DNA of 37,641 bases, taken from a virus. Taxonomy: Duplodnaviria; Heunggongvirae; Uroviricota; Caudoviricetes. Positions 3,168 to 37,018 of this stretch are shown one piece after another. The stretch lies in IMG/VR virus record IMGVR_UViG_3300012347_000366, positions 64,001 to 101,641 of that record; one strand, written 5' to 3'. Both the position numbers and the translations under genes were made by a program. Positions within the stretch are counted from its first letter, which is position 1, and every line of letters begins with the position of its first letter. The notes beneath the pieces were generated by a model. It was not told where the DNA came from and did no database searches. It worked only from the letters and a program-made list of their open reading frames with translations.

Positions 3168-3599
3168 TTATATAAACCTAGAGAAAAATGAGTTGTGTGT
3201 AGAGGTTGGTACGGCTTTATCACCATGAACGTGCTTTTCGCGCTGCAATTCAATCCATCGCTGCTGTTTAGGTTCGGAACCTACTTGAGGAGCTTTTCCA
3301 TAAATGGCGTGTAGCGCTACATGATGCGGATTACATAGGGTGTAAACCTTGTCATATAACTCTATTTTATGCTCTTCAATAAATTCATCACGAACAGCTA
3401 AAATGCCTTCGTCAGTTGATATATCGTAACCTTTTCTATCAGCCCACGTTTCTAAAAGTATTGTGATTGAATGTAAATGATGCAGTTCTAAGTCTTTATC
3501 AGTATCGCAGATAAAGCACTGAGATTTTTTATCGTATGCTGCCTTCGCTCGGTCGCGAACCCACTTAACTGGGATACGTTTATTTGTGTTCTTGGCCAT
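3168..3599 (-). CDS. T5-type nicking endonuclease (HNH-like, Zn-binding)
   Basis: CxxC..LELHH...TLCxxHHxxLH pattern; same position between TerL and portal as the T5 nicking nuclease gene. Confidence 0.75.
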   Translation of the reverse strand: MAKNTNKRIPVKWVRDRAKAAYDKKSQCFICDTDKDLELHHLHSITILLETWADRKGYDISTDEGILAVRDEFIEEHKIELYDKVYTLCNPHHVALHAIYGKAPQVGSEPKQQRWIELQREKHVHGDKAVPTSTHNSFFSRFI

Positions 3600-3629
3600 T
3601 TTTTAATTGGACCTCTTGAGATTACTAGT

Positions 3630-3658
3630 ATTATACATGGTATGTAGAAAAAAGTCAA
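3630..3658 (-). promoter_or_regulatory. Sigma70-type promoter for nuclease/portal/capsid genes
   Basis: TTGACT-N17-TATAAT on minus strand, 30 nt upstream of ATG 3599. Confidence 0.75.
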
Positions 3659-3693
3659 TACCAGAATTTTTGTTGCAGGTCATATATTTTAAC

Positions 3694-3722
3694 TTGAGTT
3701 CAGAATCCAAAACGAGTATAAT
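3694..3722 (+). promoter_or_regulatory. Promoter of GIY-YIG gene
   Basis: TTGAGT-N17-TATAAT followed by AGGAG SD and ATG 3741. Confidence 0.75.
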
Positions 3723-3740
3723 TGAATTTTTAGGAGAAAC

Positions 3741-4322
3741 ATGGCTTCCGGAATCTATAGGCTAACCTTTTCAAGTGGCAAGTTTTATATTGGCAAATCA
3801 CTTGACCTCGAAACACGCTGGAAACAGCATTTTAATAAGTTCGCAACTGGTAAAGCTGCCAAACCCATGCAAGTAGAGTATGATCGTTGTGGACTACCCA
3901 CAACCGAGGCAATTTTCCATTGTCACCAAGATCACATTGATATCATGGAAGAGTGGTTGATTGACCAGTTTAAGTGCGGCGATATGTTAAATACCACGTA
4001 TCCCAAGCTAGATCGCACAGATGAAGTTGCAGAACTTATCAACAACAATCGCGAGCTACTCAATTTGTGTACTTGGGACCACTTGAAACTTATCTCCAAT
4101 GCCGAACAGCGTATTCGTGATGCTAGTACAGCAAAACTCGAAGCTGAAAGTGCGCTAGAAAATTACAAAGATAATGGTTATATTATTGACCAAGACTACA
4201 AGGATTTGTTAGCACTCACCAACGAGTTCAAGACCAGATACTTTGACCACAAAACTGAGCTGCAGCGATTGCAAAAGCTTGGCTGGTGGGACAGACTTTT
4301 TAATTACAAAGTATATGTGTAA
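3741..4322 (+). CDS. GIY-YIG nuclease with C-terminal coiled coil
   Basis: SGIY-x10-FYIGKS-x5-RWxQH; own promoter and SD; antisense to the late operon, overlaps TerL 3' end by 19 nt. Confidence 0.8.
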   Translation: MASGIYRLTFSSGKFYIGKSLDLETRWKQHFNKFATGKAAKPMQVEYDRCGLPTTEAIFHCHQDHIDIMEEWLIDQFKCGDMLNTTYPKLDRTDEVAELINNNRELLNLCTWDHLKLISNAEQRIRDASTAKLEAESALENYKDNGYIIDQDYKDLLALTNEFKTRYFDHKTELQRLQKLGWWDRLFNYKVYV

Positions 4323-32836: not shown

Positions 32837-32913
32837 TATTTAAACACACTCGTCATTGTCGGATGATAGAGGGGAGACCGAACATCTTGCCCGCGTAGTG
32901 TGTTTAAATATGG
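32834..32913 (+). ncRNA. Stem-enclosed candidate ncRNA
   Basis: Perfect 17-bp closing stem around a 46-nt core. Confidence 0.55.
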
Positions 32914-32920
32914 TATTAGC

Positions 32921-33018
32921 GAATAATATAGATACTTCACTCACCAAAACTCCGAGTACCGCAGGAAGGCTGCAAGCAGGGTTCGACTCCCAGGGCAATA
33001 CACTATATTAACTTATTC
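32921..33018 (+). ncRNA. Y-RNA-like element with T-loop
   Basis: Terminal stems GAATA/TATTC and AATATAG/CTATATT, GATACTTC motif, GGG-TTCGACT-CCC T-arm. Confidence 0.55.
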
Positions 33019-33033
33019 TATACAATTTTTTAC

Positions 33034-33125
33034 GGCTCTATAGTTTAATGGTAAAACGGCGGATTTATATCCCGTAAGCAACAGATAATTGGTTCATCTG
33101 GGTTCGAGTCCCGGTGGAGCTACCA
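33034..33125 (+). tRNA. tRNA-Ile(TAT) with long variable arm
   Basis: Cloverleaf ends and CCA; loop TTTATAT; about 22-nt variable region. Confidence 0.8.
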
Positions 33126-33130
33126 AATAC

Positions 33131-33217
33131 GGAAGATGTGTCGCAAGGTGCGACAGAGGCTTGCTAAGCCTTCGTTCAGAAATGGGCTGATAGGTTCGAT
33201 TCCTATATCTTCCGCCA
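33131..33217 (+). tRNA. tRNA-Ser(GCT)
   Basis: Class II, loop TTGCTAA, G73, CCA. Confidence 0.95.
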
Positions 33218-33223
33218 GATTAC

Positions 33224-33297
33224 GGTGTTTCTAGTGTAGTGGCAGCACTGCTGTCTGTGAAACAGTAAGCCAGGGTTCGATTCCCGGATTCACCCCA
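33224..33297 (+). tRNA. tRNA-His(GTG)
   Basis: G-1/C73, loop CTGTGAA; two U.U mismatches in acceptor. Confidence 0.85.
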
Positions 33298-33298
33298 T

Positions 33299-33374
33299 GC
33301 CGATGTAGCTCAGGTGGTAGAGCAGCGGATTGAAAATCCGTGTGTCACTGGTTCAACCCCAGTCTTCGGCACCA
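33299..33374 (+). tRNA. tRNA-Phe(GAA)
   Basis: Loop TTGAAAA, CCA. Confidence 0.95.
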
Positions 33375-33376
33375 AG

Positions 33377-33507
33377 TATTTATAAGTTTGACCCTAAGTT
33401 GGAGTGATTCTCCAATCCTTTACAAACGGCTTAATCACCCTAGTAGTTATATAGGCTACGCTATTCCCCCGAAAGCGAACCGTAGTTTGGGGTTAAACTT
33501 ATAAATA
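33377..33507 (+). ncRNA. Stem-enclosed candidate ncRNA with pseudoknot
   Basis: About 22-bp closing stem; inner TTGGAG/CTCCAA hairpin whose loop complements AATCAC at 33433. Confidence 0.55.
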
Positions 33508-33556
33508 TAGACTTGATTGTACAGCCTATTTGTTGTATAATTATTCTTTAAATACC

Positions 33557-33631
33557 ACTGCTATCGTCTATCGGTTAGGACACCGGGTTTTCAACCCGAT
33601 AAGAGGGGTTCGATTCCCCTTAGCAGTACCA
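33557..33631 (+). tRNA. tRNA-Glu(TTC)
   Basis: Loop TTTTCAA, CCA. Confidence 0.93.
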
Positions 33632-33636
33632 CACAC

Positions 33637-33711
33637 GCTGGGGTAGCTCAGCGGCAGAGCACTCGCTTGATAAGCGATAGGTCGAGGTCTCGGAATCCTC
33701 CCTCAGTACCA
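33637..33711 (+). tRNA. tRNA-Ile(GAT)
   Basis: Loop TTGATAA; non-canonical T-loop; CCA. Confidence 0.88.
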
Positions 33712-33811
33712 AATAACTTCTCCCGAAGTTACAGTCAGAACACGAGGACTATAAACGATGTGGAAGTGGGTGGAAGCCCCACACCTTTACACACACAACA
33801 CGGAGACTATA

Positions 33812-34042
33812 ATGTCCAAATCACCTTTTGAAATTCGTCTTGAAATCCTCAAGATGACCGCAGAGCTTATGCAAGCTGAGTATGAATCCAACATGGAGTT
33901 CATTACCGAAATGCAAGAAAACCTGGCTGACAAGGGTATGAACACCCAGGCTATGATTGAAAAATTCATGCCCAAGCCTTTTGACTTCCAAGAAATGCTG
34001 GAAAAGTCAAAGAAGTTTTACGAGTTTGTAAATGCTAAGTGA
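33812..34042 (+). CDS. Conserved phage hypothetical protein
   Basis: GGAG SD; SPFEIRLEILKM...KFYEFV motif. Confidence 0.75.
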   Translation: MSKSPFEIRLEILKMTAELMQAEYESNMEFITEMQENLADKGMNTQAMIEKFMPKPFDFQEMLEKSKKFYEFVNAK

Positions 34043-34046
34043 TTTA

Positions 34047-34187
34047 ATGAAGAAACTTCAGGATGTGTTTAGACCATACACATTTGAAGATTTTATTCAA
34101 GATCAAAACCCACAAACTTGGTCAGAATTAAAAGAACTAGAGCGTACTTGGTATCGTGCCAAGGACGACTTTAAGAAAATGTATTAA
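34047..34187 (+). CDS. Hypothetical 46-aa protein
   Basis: Q...EDFI..QNPQTWSELKELER.W. Confidence 0.55.
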   Translation: MKKLQDVFRPYTFEDFIQDQNPQTWSELKELERTWYRAKDDFKKMY

Positions 34188-34258
34188 CGCGGGGAGTCAG
34201 GGTAGAGGCAAGCCTCATAAGCTCCGCCTGGAAGGTTCGAGTCCTTCCCCCGCAACCA
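34188..34258 (+). tRNA. Initiator-type tRNA-Met(CAT), truncated D-arm
   Basis: CGCGGGG start, C1:A72 mismatch, loop CTCATAA, T-arm, CCA; only 71 nt. Confidence 0.75.
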
Positions 34259-34555
34259 GTATGGCCCTCTAGCAACTTCGGTTGAGCTAGTAAAAACGGC
34301 GGTTGGCCTGCCACCATATTTTGACAATAGATACGATTGCTTATCTGAGGAAACTCGCCGGTGTATCCCGTCTATGTGTGGATATAAGCACCATGCTACA
34401 TTGTCATTGCAGGCTTGTAAACAAATCAGTGCCAATACCACTGTCCTGCGTCCGTTGAAGCGAAAACAAGATGGGCTGCTCTCACGGGGTTTGATGTTTC
34501 CTGACACAAAAATAACACACAGGTACCAGTGCAGTTGCAATGATTAAGATTGCAC

Positions 34556-34630
34556 GGACATATAGCACAGCGGTAGTGCAGCGTCTTCATACGGCGTTGG
34601 TCGCTAGTTCGAATCTAGCTATGTCCACCA
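34556..34630 (+). tRNA. tRNA-Met(CAT) elongator (or Ile2)
   Basis: Cloverleaf, loop TTCATAC, CCA. Confidence 0.9.
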
Positions 34631-34763
34631 CTAAAAATTCAGACTTGTTTTGTATATCAAAAGTCTGTATAATTAATGTTTTAGCGGCAAGAACAATAAT
34701 ACAATGAACAGATTCTGAAATTTGTACTTGTTCTTGCCACTATTTTCAAGTATAATTTATACT

Positions 34764-34946
34764 TAAATTAAACACTTTGGCTATAGTGATAGAAGCCAGT
34801 TACTTCATAACTCGAGCTGTATGCCCTTGTGGCACACAAAAGGTGGTAGCCACACACTTTAAACCGTGCAAACGTCTTAGGTGATGTAGACGCTAAACAA
34901 TTCCAGAAACTGCTTTCGCAGGTTCTTAGCCAGTGTGTTTAATTTA
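34764..34946 (+). ncRNA. Stem-enclosed RNA upstream of Ro60 gene (Y-RNA candidate)
   Basis: Begins just after promoter -10 at 34751; about 20-bp closing stem; CCAGTTACTTC motif. Confidence 0.55.
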
Positions 34947-34983
34947 GGTATAGTATCTTTCTTACTTATTTACAAGGAATCAA

Positions 34984-36294
34984 ATGTCTTCTATCAATCG
35001 TGTTGTGCGTAAGCCTGCTTTTAATTCAGTGGGTACGCAAGTGTCCAATGTTAATGCAGAACGCCAGCTAAAGCGTGTTACTCTTGCAGCTATGCTGTGG
35101 GAAAAGCAGTTTTATATGGACGGTAAAACTCATGCAGAATTGGTAAAGGACCTTGTTGCTAAAGTGTCGCCTGAAAAGGTTTCTGCTTTAGCTGAGGAAG
35201 CCCGTACGAAATTCAAACTTCGTCACATTCCTCTGCTGCTTGTTCGTGAACTTGCACGTCACGGTAAAATGCAAGCAAACGCTCTAACTTCGGTTATTCA
35301 GCGTCCAGACGAAATGTCTGAGTTCTTGTCAATTTATTGGCAAGAAGGCAAAACTGCTGTATCCAACCAAGTCAAAAAAGGCTTGGCAGCTTGTTTTAAC
35401 AAGTTCAACGAATACCAGCTTGCCAAATGGAACAAGAACTCTAACGCAATTCGTTTGCGCGATGTGATGTTCTTGAGCCACCCTAAACCGCAAAATGCTG
35501 ACCAAGCTGCACTTTTTAAGCGTATTGCCTCAGATCAGTTGGAAACACCAGATACCTGGGAAACTCAACTTAGTGCGGGTGCAGATAAGTGTGGTACGTT
35601 TACTCGTCTTATGACTGAGAAGAAACTAGGTGCTCTAGCTTTCTTGCGTAATCTGCGAAATATGCGCGACAGTGGTGTATCGGATTCCCTTATCCGAGCT
35701 TATGCACAAACTGTTGACGTTAGCCGTGTTTTGCCTTTCCGCTATATTGCGGCGGCTCGTATTGTCCCACAATACGAAGACATGCTAGAATCAATGATGT
35801 TTCGCAGTCTTGCGAATCATCAAAAAATTCCTGGTAAAACCGTGTTATTGATCGACGTAAGTGGCTCAATGTTCGGTACTCCAATCTCACAAAAATCAGA
35901 TCTAGAACGATTTGATGCGGCAGCAGCACTTGCTATGTTGTGCCGTGAAGTATGTGAGACTGTTGAGATTTATAGCTTTAGTAATAATGCTGTGCGTGTA
36001 GCACCTCGTCGTGGATTTGCTCTCCGCGAAGCAATCTCTAGTTCTCAAAGTCATGGTGGAACCGCCCTGGGCGCTTCCATGAAGACTGTAGACGGCATCA
36101 GTCAATATGACCGTTGCATTGTGTTTACTGATGAACAAAGCTATGATCGCCCAGGTGCTCCTCGTGGCAAAGGTTACATTGTTAATGTGGCCAGCTACCA
36201 AAACGGAGTTAACCACCAAGCATGGACTGAGATCAATGGTTTCTCAGAAGCTGTAATTGATTACATCCAAGCATTGGAGCAGGAAGCTGCTTAA
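34984..36294 (+). CDS. rsr: Ro60/Rsr TROVE-domain RNA-binding protein with vWA domain
   Basis: LWEKQFY.DG, KLRHIPL, IQRPDE, LRDVMFLSHPKP, TWETQLS, LGALAFLRNLRNM, RVLPFRY, LLIDVSGSM, GGT, VFTDEQ, VNVASYQNG. Confidence 0.93.
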   Translation: MSSINRVVRKPAFNSVGTQVSNVNAERQLKRVTLAAMLWEKQFYMDGKTHAELVKDLVAKVSPEKVSALAEEARTKFKLRHIPLLLVRELARHGKMQANALTSVIQRPDEMSEFLSIYWQEGKTAVSNQVKKGLAACFNKFNEYQLAKWNKNSNAIRLRDVMFLSHPKPQNADQAALFKRIASDQLETPDTWETQLSAGADKCGTFTRLMTEKKLGALAFLRNLRNMRDSGVSDSLIRAYAQTVDVSRVLPFRYIAAARIVPQYEDMLESMMFRSLANHQKIPGKTVLLIDVSGSMFGTPISQKSDLERFDAAAALAMLCREVCETVEIYSFSNNAVRVAPRRGFALREAISSSQSHGGTALGASMKTVDGISQYDRCIVFTDEQSYDRPGAPRGKGYIVNVASYQNGVNHQAWTEINGFSEAVIDYIQALEQEAA

Positions 36295-36356
36295 GTTACT
36301 TACCCACGACCCAAGCCTGTAGCCAGTCAGGTGTTATAAAGGTGGGGCTCTAAGCT

Positions 36357-36453
36357 AAGGGCTTAGAATAGCATATGGTGCTCTAGTACAGTTACTTCTA
36401 TTTGGTTTGAAAACACACTGTACTTAATTTTTCCTATGTTATTCTAAGCCCTT
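36357..36453 (+). ncRNA. Y-RNA-like element B
   Basis: 19-bp terminal stem, internal loop, AGTACAGT/ACTGTACT stem, GTTACTTC motif. Confidence 0.65.
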
Positions 36454-36519
36454 TGCGCTTTTATCGGTTACTTCTAGACTTTTAATCTAACCAAATCGCC
36501 GATAATACTTATTCAAGGG
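36449..36519 (+). ncRNA. Y-RNA-like element C with tRNA-Lys anticodon-arm mimic
   Basis: TTATCGG/CCGATAA stem, GGTTACTTC, TAGA-CTTTTAA-TCTA. Confidence 0.6.
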
Positions 36520-36530
36520 CTACTTTTTAT

Positions 36531-36657
36531 TGCTTTGGCGATAGTTACAGTTTCATCATAAGTTCGATTCTTATATTACGAGCATTTCGTTATTCGCCAA
36601 GTGGTATGGCACCGGGTGTTAAACCCCGGCAAACTCTGTAACGACTAATTCCAAGCA
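36531..36657 (+). ncRNA. YrlA-like RNA: circularly permuted tRNA on a terminal stem
   Basis: T-arm 36558-74, closed acceptor 36575-93, D-arm 36596-610, anticodon-like arm 36612-29, closing stems GTTACAG/CTGTAAC and TGCTTTGG/CCAAGCA. Confidence 0.75.
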
Positions 36658-36668
36658 TTTTATTCCAT

Positions 36669-36742
36669 GCGTCCCTGGTGTAATGGCAGCACGGCGGTCT
36701 CCAAAACCGTTAGTCAGAGTTCGAATCTCTGGGGGCGTGCCA
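36669..36742 (+). tRNA. tRNA-Trp(CCA)
   Basis: Loop CTCCAAA, G73, CCA. Confidence 0.95.
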
Positions 36743-36805
36743 AAATTTAAATTTGAATCTGTTTGCAATATGGGTTATAATTATTCTTTACAGCAAGGAA
36801 TAGCA

Positions 36806-37018
36806 ATGACAGCATTAGATTCAATTTCCAAACCTCTTGTAATCATGCCAGCATATGGTAGAACTTACAAAAACCGAGAAGAAGTTGTTGAAGCCTGGAA
36901 GTCTGGAAAAGATTTCAAGGTTGTTGGCGGCCCTTACTGTTCGATCAGAGATCTAGCAAAATTAGGTTGCAGTTCAGTTTGGATTGACTTAGTTACTTCG
37001 ATGATTAGGGTTGAATAA
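36806..37018 (+). CDS. Hypothetical 70-aa protein
   Basis: Promoter + AAGGA SD; PAYGR.YK...V...W..GKDF...GGPYCSIRD. Confidence 0.7.
   Translation: MTALDSISKPLVIMPAYGRTYKNREEVVEAWKSGKDFKVVGGPYCSIRDLAKLGCSSVWIDLVTSMIRVE

What the first reader, a model, noticed from the sequence alone, without database searches (positions are those of the whole stretch)
32921..36505. Y-like mini-RNAs sharing G(T/A)TACTTC, each followed by a different anticodon-loop look-alike
Seen: G(A/T)TACTTC at 32931, 34799, 36391 and 36467, in three cases at the end of an inner stem within a terminal helix. It is followed by CACCAAA (Trp-like, 32942), TTCATAA (Met-like, 34804), TTGAAAA (identical to the Phe loop, 36407) and TAGA-CTTTTAA-TCTA (Lys loop with 4-bp stem, 36475-89). 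Known: anticodon nucleases such as PrrC and the PARIS effector cut tRNA-Lys(UUU); Ro60 binds Y RNAs and is linked to RNA repair operons. Inference: a Ro60-presented panel of anticodon decoys that soak up host tRNA-targeting defences. Only the Lys mimic has a clear stem; the others are weaker.
Basis: partly seen in the sequence, partly recalled or inferred. Interest (0 to 1): 0.75.

Follow-up and report, generated by a model that had tools for sequence, protein, structure and literature searches.

The report
Phage Y RNAs with anticodon-arm tip
The shared GUUACUUC word marks the hinge of four real small RNAs that partner a phage Ro60-type protein; one of them (and many relatives) displays a copy of a tRNA anticodon arm whose three "anticodon" letters change between near-identical phages, which fits, but does not prove, a bait for tRNA-cutting enzymes.

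Summary
G(U/A)UACUUC at 32931, 34799, 36391 and 36467 each closes a 7-bp inner helix inside a Y-RNA-type handle beside a TROVE/Ro60 gene (34984-36294). A fifth copy (36992) lies in an ORF and is chance. In 80 related viral loci the word occurs 237 times on the TROVE strand and 27 times on the other. The handle helices covary strongly.

Only one of the four "anticodon loops" is real: UAGA-CUUUUAA-UCUA (36475-36489). The Trp-, Met- and Phe-like 7-mers are expected by chance, or are conserved for other reasons.

In relatives, the segment after the hinge is often a true anticodon arm: 7-nt loop, C32-U33-NNN-A37-A38, canonical spacing to a T arm. It occurs inside a circularly permuted tRNA or alone. 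Its triplet switches (UUU/GCU/UGU/UCU/GUU) while the 71-nt scaffold stays identical.

The same family sits beside chromosomal TROVE genes in Hoeflea/Rhizobiaceae, so it is not phage-specific.

Published YrlA RNAs lack an anticodon loop, and Rfam's YrlA model does not reach its threshold here. I rate this a new variant of a known kind.

The decoy function is untested, and the idea was already floated for YrlA in 2020. This scan has noted anticodon-arm Y RNAs before on other DNA.

The parts
32912..33024 (+). Y1: Y-RNA-like unit. Handle GGUAU-(U)-AG / CU-AUAC, motif UAGCGAAU, inner helix 32925-31 with 33003-09, hinge AUACUUC 32932-38. The 64-nt module holds an 11-nt-loop hairpin, a GCAG/CUGC hairpin and a degenerate T arm (CAGGG-UUCGACU-CCCAG). 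No anticodon-type loop.
   Evidence: Absent at this site in relatives L003 and L006, and replaced by other inserts in L001 and L002.
34734..34763 (+). Sigma-70-like promoter (TTGCCA-18-TATACT) just upstream of Y2.
   Evidence: consensus match only.
34763..34947 (+). Y2: long Y-RNA-like unit. About 20-bp terminal helix (34763-82 with 34928-47), UAGUGAUAG, inner helix 34793-99 with 34910-16 (6 of 7 pairs), hinge UUACUUC 34800-06, and a 103-nt module of several hairpins. The AUAACU after the hinge is invariant in orthologs. No anticodon arm.
34984..36294 (+). TROVE/Ro60-type protein with a vWA domain (436 aa), the presumed protein partner.
   Evidence: Pfam TROVE E=3.9e-10, VWA_2, vWA_Ro60. Thermus phage phiLo Ro60 structures 9KOP/9L5Y E=8e-21 over residues 38-432.
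36357..36453 (+). Y3: short YrlB-like unit. Terminal helix 36357-75 with 36435-53, bulged U 36376, GG:CC, inner helix 36385-91 with 36418-24, hinge 36392-98. The 19-nt loop carries the conserved UUGG...UGAAAAC block.
36447..36521 (+). Y4: mini Y RNA. Its module is an anticodon-arm mimic, UAGA-CUUUUAA-UCUA (36475-89; loop identical to the phage's own tRNA-Lys(UUU) loop), followed by the conserved ACCAAAUCG. Inner helix 36461-67 with 36499-505, hinge 36468-74. Its 5' handle strand AGCCCUU (36447-53) is also the 3' handle strand of Y3.
36531..36657 (+). Same handle, but hinge UUUCAUC; permuted tRNA (T arm, capped acceptor, D arm, then a stem-loop). Its ortholog L011:4596 has UUACUUC.
34945..34975 (+). 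Scar where relatives carry a further unit, a permuted tRNA with a full anticodon arm directly upstream of TROVE. The window keeps only AGGUAUAGU fused to ...UCUUACUUAUU.
   Evidence: A contig from an RNA library has 125 extra letters between 34953 and 34959.

Best explanation
The four sites are genes for Y RNAs, the small RNA partners of the adjacent phage Ro60/TROVE protein. They belong to a large subfamily that shares one handle: a terminal helix, a bulged U, two pairs (RG:CY), an internal loop (5' YG(A/U)AG, 3' UUGUUCC-like) and a 7-bp inner helix. G(U/A)UACUUC is the hinge at the top of that handle. G closes the inner helix. UUA corresponds to the conserved YUAY/UA kink of YrlA. CUUC starts the effector module.

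The module is exchangeable. In relatives it is often a whole circularly permuted tRNA that keeps a true anticodon arm (CUUC-N as the 5' stem strand, 7-nt loop C-U-NNN-A-A, 5-nt variable loop, T arm, capped acceptor, D arm). In 'mini' forms it is the anticodon arm alone.

In this window only Y4 (36447-36521) displays such an arm, with a tRNA-Lys(UUU) loop. Y1, Y2 and Y3 carry other modules.

Inferred mechanism: Ro60 binds the handle, and the tip presents a tRNA or anticodon-arm look-alike to a protein that reads anticodon loops. The three central letters set which one. The partner I think most likely (about 1 in 4) is an anticodon nuclease or tRNase toxin, with the RNA acting as a competitive bait.

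Shown: sequence architecture, covariation, linkage to TROVE, anticodon-loop signature, triplet switching. Inferred: Ro60 binding, processing, and any effect on nucleases.
For: Linkage and strand: 237 hinge words lie on the TROVE strand against 27 on the other, in 80 loci with TROVE identity 44-94%.

A search that ignores the hinge (UNGYG + helix + 3' UNUUCY) finds 168 forward and 22 reverse-strand hits. About 70% of forward hits carry UACUUC at the hinge.

Handle covariation: 86.4% of cells paired against 53.7% in shuffles; covariation score 0.854 against 0.239 (0 of 500 shuffles); 15 of 16 pairs have double changes; slid controls score 0.15-0.23.

The protein is a Ro60: Pfam TROVE plus vWA, and the phiLo phage Ro60 structure at E=8e-21. 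That protein binds phage Yrl RNAs in vitro (PMC12135203).

Relation to YrlA: Rfam RF02553 aligns T arm, capped acceptor, UA and D arm of relative L081:3722-3823 at 42.7 bits. Its consensus 'CUAc' falls where UUAC lies.

Anticodon arm: 77 of 171 units have a stem of 4 bp or more with a 7-nt loop right after UUA (null 19.5%). 41 of the 77 have Y32-U33-N3-R37 (null 9.6%). Loop counts are C46, U60, N, N, N, A52, A50 of 77. The distance from loop end to G53 is the tRNA value of 14 nt in 26 of 44. Anticodon and T stems covary (0.811 against 0.258).

Triplet switching: Y4 orthologs read CUUUUAA, CAGCUAA, CUGCUAA, CUUGUAA and CUUCUAA on one constant stem. Between the window and L026 the neighbouring TROVE gene differs at 8.2% of bases (15.8% at third positions), the 71-nt Y4 scaffold at 0, and loop positions 33-36 at 3 of 4.

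A truncated relative (L032:3931) keeps the arm and loses T, acceptor and D.

Hughes et al. 2020 (PMC7790460) proposed that YrlA's tRNA-like domain may competitively inhibit an anticodon nuclease.
Against: There are no data on transcript ends, Ro60 binding or nucleases. The RNA-library evidence is contigs only and does not show transcription.

Rfam's YrlA and Y_RNA models do not reach threshold on any window unit.

Only Y1 has a literal CGAA in the handle.

Three of the four window units have no anticodon-type loop, so in this phage there is one arm, not a panel.

The same RNAs precede chromosomal TROVE genes in Hoeflea/Rhizobiaceae MAGs with ordinary neighbours. A purely anti-phage-defence role is therefore too narrow.

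The units used for the loop statistics were found through the hinge word and a hairpin criterion, so part of the stem pairing is by selection. Many units are orthologs, so counts are not independent events.

Column-wise tests of 'loop more variable than the rest' across divergent members were not significant (p=0.09, 0.25, 0.32).

Y3 and Y4 share one handle strand, so both handles cannot form in one molecule.

The phage has no RtcB or Rnl2-type ligase.
Confidence: 0.6

Rival explanations
1. Evolutionary relic. The anticodon arms are leftovers of the tRNA genes from which these Y RNAs arose (the dimeric-tRNA origin model cited in 10.1101/312249). They are kept only as a stable hairpin, and the central triplet drifts because nothing reads it.
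For: The permuted units look exactly like the 3' two-thirds of one tRNA followed by the 5' third of another. They lie inside dense tRNA clusters. Hairpin loops normally evolve faster than stems. 34 of 171 units have a T arm but no such arm, and 60 have neither. Column tests across divergent members were not significant.
Against: Loop positions 32, 33, 37 and 38 stay C, U, A, A across TROVE identities of 44-94%, while only 34-36 vary. Mini units retain the arm after losing the rest of the tRNA. 3 of 4 loop letters changed where 71 scaffold letters and a 15.8% third-position background predict about 0.6. NNU triplets are over-represented (28 of 41 against 35% of 506 tRNA genes, p=2e-5) and CAU is absent.
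Confidence: 0.2
2. The arm recruits or titrates a tRNA anticodon-loop modification enzyme or another housekeeping tRNA-binding factor. Candidates are the t6A37 machinery for U36-A37 loops or Tgt for U33-G34-U35 loops. The purpose would be to tether it to Ro60, or to have the RNA modified and stabilised.
For: 68% of clean loops end in U36-A37, the class of ANN-decoding tRNAs. 12 of 41 are G34-U35-N. The Hoeflea orthologs read GUU, GUA and GUG. YrlA is known to be modified by tRNA enzymes TruB and DusA (PMC4201824). Presence in bacterial chromosomes fits a housekeeping partner. The link between these loop classes and t6A or queuosine rests on my own knowledge.
Against: The set also includes GCC, UCC, CGC, GCG and GAA loops. 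Rapid switching between close strains is not expected for a housekeeping partner. No enzyme of this kind is encoded nearby.
Confidence: 0.1
3. The triplet acts by base pairing: a loop-loop or codon-like contact that guides the Ro60 particle (and a recruited exonuclease such as PNPase) to particular RNAs.
For: Ro60/Y RNA particles tether PNPase for structured-RNA decay in Deinococcus, and the phiLo phage Ro60/Yrl binds host PNPase in vitro (PMC4201824, PMC12135203). A variable triplet in a constant scaffold is how a guide would look.
Against: Three bases give little specificity. No compensating change elsewhere in the otherwise identical Y4 scaffold accompanies the switches. The complements of the common triplets (AAC, AGC, AAA) are not usual bacterial anticodons (my own knowledge).
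Confidence: 0.07
4. Not Ro60 partners at all. The units are mobile or processing elements of tRNA clusters, for example MITE-like inserts or RNase P/E processing signals, that merely co-occur with TROVE.
For: Y1 is present or absent between close relatives. The unit upstream of TROVE is deleted in this window. Units have inverted-repeat ends.
Against: Strand bias follows TROVE (237 to 27). The units also accompany TROVE in bacterial chromosomes without tRNA clusters. The handle resembles the published Rsr-binding motif and is partly recognised by the YrlA model. Within the own genome the exact word GTTACTTC occurs 6 times, 4 of them within 2.2 kb around TROVE: 3 Y units plus the chance copy at 36992.
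Confidence: 0.03

Closest known systems
YrlA, the tRNA-like bacterial/phage Y RNA (Rfam RF02553; Chen et al. 2014, PMC4201824; structure in Wang et al. 2018, 10.1101/312249)
   Same: Encoded next to, and on the strand of, a Ro60/TROVE gene. The 5' and 3' ends form a stem with a G-N-C-G-A-A-type motif. A conserved YUAY (here UUAC) sits at the junction. In relatives and in Y5 there is a T arm, a capped acceptor hairpin, UA and a D arm in permuted order. RF02553 aligns these parts of L081 at 42.7 bits.
   Different: Published YrlA 'lacks the anticodon loop', and its Ro-binding stem continues the anticodon stem. Here a self-contained anticodon arm (5-bp stem, 7-nt loop, 5-nt variable loop) sits between hinge and T arm, and the strand after the D arm (GCUAAAAUCU) is left unpaired. 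There are mini forms with the arm only. The extended hinge UACUUC and the 3' UUGUUCC are specific to this subfamily. RF02553 stays below its 69-bit threshold in relatives and finds nothing in the window units.
YrlB / Yrl1-Yrl2 type short Y RNAs (Salmonella, M. smegmatis; Thermus phage phiLo, PMC12135203)
   Same: Short stem-bulge-stem RNAs without a tRNA domain, several per Ro60 locus. This matches Y3, and in size Y4. The phiLo Ro60, the closest solved relative of this TROVE protein (E=8e-21), binds such RNAs.
   Different: No sequence match was tested against phiLo Yrl1/2. The CGAA motif is literal only in Y1 here. The tip of Y4 is an anticodon-arm copy, which is not described for those RNAs.
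Phage tRNAs that escape anticodon nucleases (T5 tRNA-Lys against PARIS AriB; commentary PMC11455837, citing Burman et al. 2024 and van den Berg et al. 2023)
   Different: Those are functional, nuclease-resistant tRNAs that replace cut host tRNAs. Y4 cannot be charged, has a canonical (presumably cleavable) loop, and sits on a Ro60 handle.

Membership tests
Y RNA (Ro60-associated small RNA) | Encoded close to a Ro60/TROVE gene on the same strand | tested here: met
   All four units lie within 2.1 kb of TROVE on the + strand. In 80 related loci the count is 237 against 27 by strand. Chen et al. used 'within 4 kb, same strand' (PMC4201824).
Y RNA (Ro60-associated small RNA) | 5' and 3' ends pair into a long stem carrying a bulge or internal loop | tested here: met
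   The handle of two helices with a bulged U shows covariation of 0.854 against 0.239 in shuffles, with 15 of 16 pairs compensatory.
Y RNA (Ro60-associated small RNA) | Conserved Ro60-binding sequence (GGUCCGA in animals; GNCGAAN0-1G in YrlA/YrlB) | tested here: inconclusive
   The family consensus is U-R-G-Y-G-(A/U)-A-G. Some relatives read GGCGAAG exactly. In the window, Y1 reads UAGCGAAU, Y2 UAGUGAUAG, Y3 UGGUGCUCU and Y4 UUGCGCUUU.
Y RNA (Ro60-associated small RNA) | Physically bound by Ro60 | not testable with these tools
   Needs RIP/CLIP or EMSA.
YrlA (Rfam RF02553) | Covariance-model score at or above the 69-bit gathering threshold | tested here: not met
   The best score in the own genome is 14.3 bits, and it falls on tRNA genes. 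There was no hit in 16 related loci, 8 bacterial loci or window 36340-36670. Relative L081 scores 42.7 bits.
YrlA (Rfam RF02553) | tRNA-like domain: T arm, closed acceptor hairpin, UA, D arm | tested here: not met
   None of the four cited window units has it; Y1 keeps only a degenerate T arm. It is present in Y5 and in 48 related units.
tRNA anticodon arm (mimic) | 7-nt loop with U33 and purine 37, closed by a stem | tested here: met
   Y4 reads UAGA-C-U-UUU-A-A-UCUA, with a 4-bp stem. This is not met by the other three cited 7-mers: one is in an 11-nt loop, one overlaps the hinge, one has no stem.
tRNA anticodon arm (mimic) | Canonical position relative to the rest of a tRNA (5-bp stem, 5-nt variable loop, T arm) | tested here: met
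   Met in relatives only. The distance from loop end to G53 is 14 nt in 26 of 44 units, and stems covary. Not applicable to Y4, which has no T arm.
Ro60/TROVE protein | TROVE (HEAT-repeat ring) plus vWA domain | tested here: met
   Pfam PF05731 E=3.9e-10, PF13519, PF25045. PDB 9KOP/9L5Y E=8e-21 across residues 38-432. The fold itself was not modelled.
Anticodon-nuclease decoy / inhibitor | Binds, is cut by, or inhibits an anticodon nuclease | not testable with these tools
Only indirect evidence exists: a canonical loop, triplet switching, and a published speculation for YrlA (PMC7790460).

The most novel reading that the evidence does not exclude
Ro60 particles, in phages and in some bacteria, carry a quickly re-targetable anticodon-arm bait. 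A constant handle docks on Ro60, and a three-letter change at the tip retunes the RNA to whichever anticodon nuclease or tRNase toxin the lineage currently faces. Ro60 (with a host exonuclease) either shields the bait or disposes of the cut product. This would be an RNA-based, specificity-switching immunity against tRNA-cutting enzymes.
Probability: 0.2. Interest if true: 0.85.

Novelty: new variant of a known kind. Interest (0 to 1): 0.6.

Why it matters
What bacterial and phage Ro60/Y RNA particles are for, and what the tRNA-like tip of YrlA binds, are still open questions. A Y RNA subfamily whose tip is a genuine anticodon arm narrows the search for the missing partner to proteins that read anticodon loops. 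The key feature is that the scaffold is frozen while the triplet changes between near-identical phages.

It also gives simple reagents. The same 75-nt RNA exists naturally with five different loops.

The permuted units keep the whole anticodon arm of the first tRNA, so they are also direct support for the proposed origin of Y RNAs from tRNA dimers.

If the partner is an anticodon nuclease, this would be a new kind of RNA counter-measure in the contest over tRNAs between phages, bacteria and toxins.

Tried and rejected
- Rfam at gathering and at E<=10 on the region: only tRNAs; no Y_RNA or YrlA.
- DNA search of 50,697 phage records, near and distant: no close relative; only tRNA matches and a 64.5% match of the TROVE gene to Ralstonia phage RsoM2USA.
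- GTTACTTC at 36992 (inside ORF 36683-37018) and at genome position 6052: no handle, so rejected as chance.
- 'Trp', 'Met' and 'Phe' loops: rejected as anticodon mimics.
- Column-wise Fisher tests of loop against the rest in three ortholog groups: not significant once divergent members are included. The pairwise comparison against the TROVE gene was more telling.
- A relaxed 3-bp hairpin definition pulled in Y3-type UUGG loops and blurred the triplet table, so I used the strict set.
- RtcB (PF01139) and Rnl2-type RNA ligase (PF09414) in the phage genome: none. Ten neighbouring small ORFs: only a dATP/dGTP diphosphohydrolase domain and a UvdE endonuclease.
- Reads: four freshwater RNA libraries hold the stretch, but only as assembled contigs. 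They give no ends, strand or proof of transcription. Parts without cover mean nothing.
- Two reviews (PMC10870794, PMC6047535) are not held, so I cannot exclude that anticodon-bearing Y RNAs are mentioned there.
- I did not build a covariance model of my own, model the protein fold, or run a complex prediction.

Full report
SETTING. The window is the last 37.6 kb of a 101.6-kb IMG/VR virus record. The region holds 16 tRNA genes on the + strand. It also holds a 436-aa ORF (34984-36294) with Pfam TROVE, VWA_2 and vWA_Ro60 matches. The closest solved relatives of this ORF are the Ro60 of Thermus phage phiLo (9KOP/9L5Y, E=8e-21, residues 38-432). That protein binds two phage Y-RNA-like RNAs and host PNPase in vitro (PMC12135203).

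THE OBSERVATION. GWTACTTC occurs five times in the window, all on the + strand between 32931 and 36999. The expectation is 1.6 for both strands of the whole window. For four of the five copies, the seven bases ending in the G of the word have a perfect or near-perfect complement downstream:
- AATATAG/CTATATT, 64 nt apart
- AAGCCAG/CTGCTTT, 103 nt apart, 6 of 7 pairs
- AGTACAG/CTGTACT, 19 nt apart
- TTATCGG/CCGATAA, 24 nt apart

Each of the four is preceded by U-N-G-Y-G at a fixed distance and followed by a U-rich UUC(Y) block and an outer helix. The fifth copy (36992) lies in a small ORF and has none of this. Nor does a copy at genome position 6052.

RELATIVES. The TROVE protein recovered 17 and then 80 IMG/VR loci, at 44-94% protein identity. 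In these the word occurs 237 times on the TROVE strand and 27 on the other, usually 2-7 copies per locus.

Because I had selected units by the word, I repeated the search without it, using UNGYG, a spacer, a 7-bp helix and a 3' UNUUCY. This gave 168 forward and 22 reverse-strand hits. About 70% of forward hits carry UACUUC right after the helix. A second hinge type, (U/G)UUCAUC, is found in about 8%.

An alignment of 39 short units with different inner helices gives 86.4% paired cells against 53.7% in shuffles. The covariation score is 0.854 against 0.239 (0 of 500 shuffles), slid controls score 0.15-0.23, and 15 of 16 pairs show double changes.

The handle is therefore real. It consists of an outer helix, a bulged U, two pairs (RG:CY), an internal loop (5' YG(A/U)AG, 3' ..UUGUU), a 7-bp inner helix, and then UUACUUC.

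RELATION TO KNOWN Y RNAs. Chen et al. 2014 define YrlA/YrlB by a GNCGAAN0-1G motif near the 5' end, a conserved YUAY, and (for YrlA) T, acceptor-like and D arms in permuted order. Wang et al. 2018 show that the UA of YUAY makes a kink. They state that YrlA 'lacks the anticodon loop'.

Here some relatives read GGCGAAG exactly, while the window units read UAGCGAAU, UAGUGAUAG, UGGUGCUCU and UUGCGCUUU. Rfam's YrlA model finds nothing above noise in the genome (14 bits). It also finds nothing in 16 related loci, in 8 bacterial loci, or in 36340-36670. On a small stretch of relative L081 it scores 42.7 bits against a threshold of 69. It aligns the T arm, capped acceptor, UA and D arm, and its consensus 'CUAc' falls at our UUAC.

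So these RNAs are relatives of YrlA with a different lower architecture. They are not members by the curated threshold.

WHAT FOLLOWS THE HINGE. In 171 unique high-confidence units:
- 77 have a stem of 4 bp or more enclosing a 7-nt loop that starts within 16 nt of UUA (19.5% in shuffled modules).
- 41 of these 77 have Y32-U33-NNN-R37 (9.6% in shuffles). Overall that is 24% against 1.9%.
- Loop counts are C 46, U 60, then three variable positions, then A 52, A 50, out of 77.
- 48 such units go on to a T loop.
- In 26 of 44, the loop end lies exactly 14 nt before G53, the spacing of a class-I tRNA with a 5-nt variable loop.

A gap-free alignment of 26 units supports both the anticodon-type stem and the T stem: 94.8% paired against 66.4%, and 0.811 against 0.258. 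The caveat is that the hairpin was a selection criterion.

These units read: hinge UUA; CUUC-N as the 5' stem strand; loop; 3' strand; AGGUC-type variable loop; T arm; acceptor stem closed by a small loop; UA; D arm; a conserved unpaired GCUAAAAUCU; then the return strand of the inner helix. That is a tRNA opened between positions 26 and 27, keeping its whole anticodon arm. In published YrlA, by contrast, the Ro-binding stem takes the place of the anticodon stem.

Twenty-nine units are minis that keep only the arm. One (L032:3931) is visibly a deletion derivative of a permuted-tRNA unit.

THE FOUR WINDOW UNITS.
- Y4 (36447-36521) is a mini: UAGA-CUUUUAA-UCUA, then the conserved ACCAAAUCG. Its loop equals that of the phage's own tRNA-Lys.
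- Y3 (36357-36453) has a 19-nt tip. The 'Phe loop' UUGAAAA lies in a block UGG-N-UGAAAAC that is conserved in the Y3 orthologs. It has no flanking stem, and RNAfold pairs its GAA with the UUC of the hinge.
- Y2 (34763-34947) has its own promoter-like site and a 103-nt module of hairpins. The 'Met loop' UUCAUAA is half hinge and half an AUAACU that is invariant in orthologs.
- Y1 (32912-33024) carries a degenerate T arm. Its 'Trp' CACCAAA lies in an 11-nt loop. The whole unit is missing at this site in close relatives.

Y-T-N-N-N-R-N heptamers start at 7.8% of window positions. Finding one within 20 nt of a site is therefore expected 80% of the time.

The window has also lost the unit that relatives carry just upstream of TROVE, a permuted tRNA with a full anticodon arm. 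It leaves a scar near 34945-34975. A contig from a freshwater RNA library carries 125 extra letters exactly there.

TRIPLET SWITCHING. Y4 orthologs on a constant UAGA/UCUA stem read CUUUUAA (window, L029), CAGCUAA (L026, L053), CUGCUAA (L031), CUUGUAA (L037/38) and CUUCUAA (L041). L056 reads CUGUUAA on a UAUA stem.

Measured against the neighbouring TROVE gene:
- Window vs L026: TROVE differs at 8.2% of bases (15.8% of third positions); the 71-nt Y4 scaffold at 0; loop positions 33-36 at 3 of 4.
- Window vs L029: 16.0% (32.3%); scaffold 0 of 71; loop 0 of 4.
- Window vs L031: 15.6% (29.3%); scaffold 2 of 72; loop 2 of 4.

So the scaffold is under strong purifying selection, and the triplet is not. 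Other ortholog groups behave the same way:
- UUCGU/ACGAG stem with UCU, UCU, GUU, UAU
- UUUUA/UAAAA stem with GUU (several), UUU, CUU, GUG, GCU

Column tests that include divergent members are not significant, however.

Among 41 clean loops, 28 end in U36 (GUU 9, UUU 4, GCU 4, UCU 3...). The figure for the 506 tRNA genes of the same loci is 35% (p=2e-5). CAU, the commonest tRNA anticodon there, is absent. Many of these units are orthologs, so these are counts, not events.

NOT PHAGE-SPECIFIC. The same handle, hinge and permuted tRNAs precede TROVE genes in the chromosomes of Hoeflea and Rhizobiaceae MAGs, at 3-5 units per locus. The neighbours are ordinary (GNAT, TPR, glyoxalase, FAD monooxygenase, ABC permeases), with no rtcBA. 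Orthologous arms there read CUGUUAA, CUGUAAA, CUGUGAA and CUUUUCA. A second unit reads CUGAAAC or CUGUAAC.

FUNCTION. Nothing here measures function.

The phage encodes no RtcB or Rnl2-type ligase. Four freshwater metatranscriptome libraries from four studies contain the stretch, including one 1305-nt contig spanning the TROVE 3' end through Y3-Y5. These are contigs, however, and DNA carry-over cannot be excluded.

The most economical reading is that Ro60 docks on the handle and the tip offers a tRNA or anticodon-arm look-alike to a protein that reads anticodon loops. Hughes et al. 2020 already suggested that YrlA's tRNA-like domain might competitively inhibit the anticodon nuclease that triggers the Salmonella rsr-yrlBA-rtcBA operon. 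T5 escapes PARIS through a resistant tRNA-Lys.

An arm with a canonical loop, a frozen scaffold and a switching triplet is what a bait in such a contest would look like. I put this at about one in four. The rivals are a relic hairpin, recruitment of a modification enzyme (U36-A37 and G34-U35 classes), and base-pairing guidance.

PRIOR NOTES OF THIS SCAN. Phage Ro60 genes with arrays of handle-sharing tRNA-mimic RNAs have been noted in several hundred other genomes. Anticodon-arm tips were noted in actinobacterial phages, Bacteroidota and another phage (e1-5430646, e1-2637774, e1-5384514). Those are unchecked AI notes and I do not use them as support. My result on this lineage agrees with them.

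In the literature I could search, I found no description of Y RNAs with anticodon arms.

Noticed in passing
window 36447-36453 (with 36357-63 and 36515-21): Y3 and Y4 are tandem and share one strand. AGCCCUU is both the 3' handle strand of Y3 (pairing with AAGGGCU at 36357-63) and the 5' handle strand of Y4 (pairing with AAGGGCU at 36515-21). The three segments change together in relatives (L008: AAGGCUU / AAGCCUU / AAGGUU). Both handles cannot form in one molecule, so this points to alternative folds or a processing order.
   Followed up: partly
window 36490-36498 and relatives (L026:5507, L056, L066, L039, L049): In the mini units the anticodon-arm mimic is always followed by AACCA(A/U), as in UCUA-ACCAAAUCG. 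This resembles a discriminator base plus CCA. The permuted-tRNA units instead have a conserved GCUAAAAUCU before the return strand. No explanation.
   Followed up: no
window 34190-34262: A tRNA-like element not called by ARAGORN or Rfam. It has the acceptor-type pairing GCGGGG/CCCCGC, a good T arm (GGAAGG-UUCGAGU-CCUUCC), an encoded ACCA end, and a CUCAUAA (CAU) loop, but no normal D arm.
   Followed up: no
window 32837-32911; L001:754-880, L003:470-590: A long hairpin directly after tRNA-Lys. Its roughly 17-bp stem changes by compensatory substitutions between relatives (AAACACACU/AGUGUGUUU here, GAGCAUAUUAGC/GCUAGUAUGCUC in L001/L003), and its interior differs. A similar long hairpin lies at 33384-33500.
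   Followed up: partly
window 34945-34975: Deletion scar of a Y RNA unit that relatives (L002, L003, L004, L011, L016) carry between Y2 and the TROVE start codon. A contig from an RNA library of a related strain has 125 extra letters at 34953/34959.
   Followed up: partly
L003:6974, L004:6307, L006:6139, L007:6625, L041:8189; own genome C1:640-1089: These phages encode a tmRNA with tags ANDTQFALVA, ANDNVFALAA and similar. Rfam calls the one in L041 a permuted tmRNA (91 bits). The record's two ends both lie inside the tRNA cluster, so a stretch that in relatives holds tRNA-Asn, a further Y unit, Gln and Arg may be missing from this assembly.
   Followed up: no
L002:181-913: Where the window has Y1, relative L002 has an insert of about 730 nt that looks protein-coding, possibly a homing-endonuclease-type insert. 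This intergenic site after tRNA-Lys is a hot spot for insertions.
   Followed up: no
L114-L117 (Hoeflea / Rhizobiaceae MAG chromosomes), about 3270-3950: Three to five Y units of the same UACUUC subfamily sit directly upstream of a chromosomal TROVE gene, with no rtcBA, no tRNA cluster and no phage genes nearby.
   Followed up: partly
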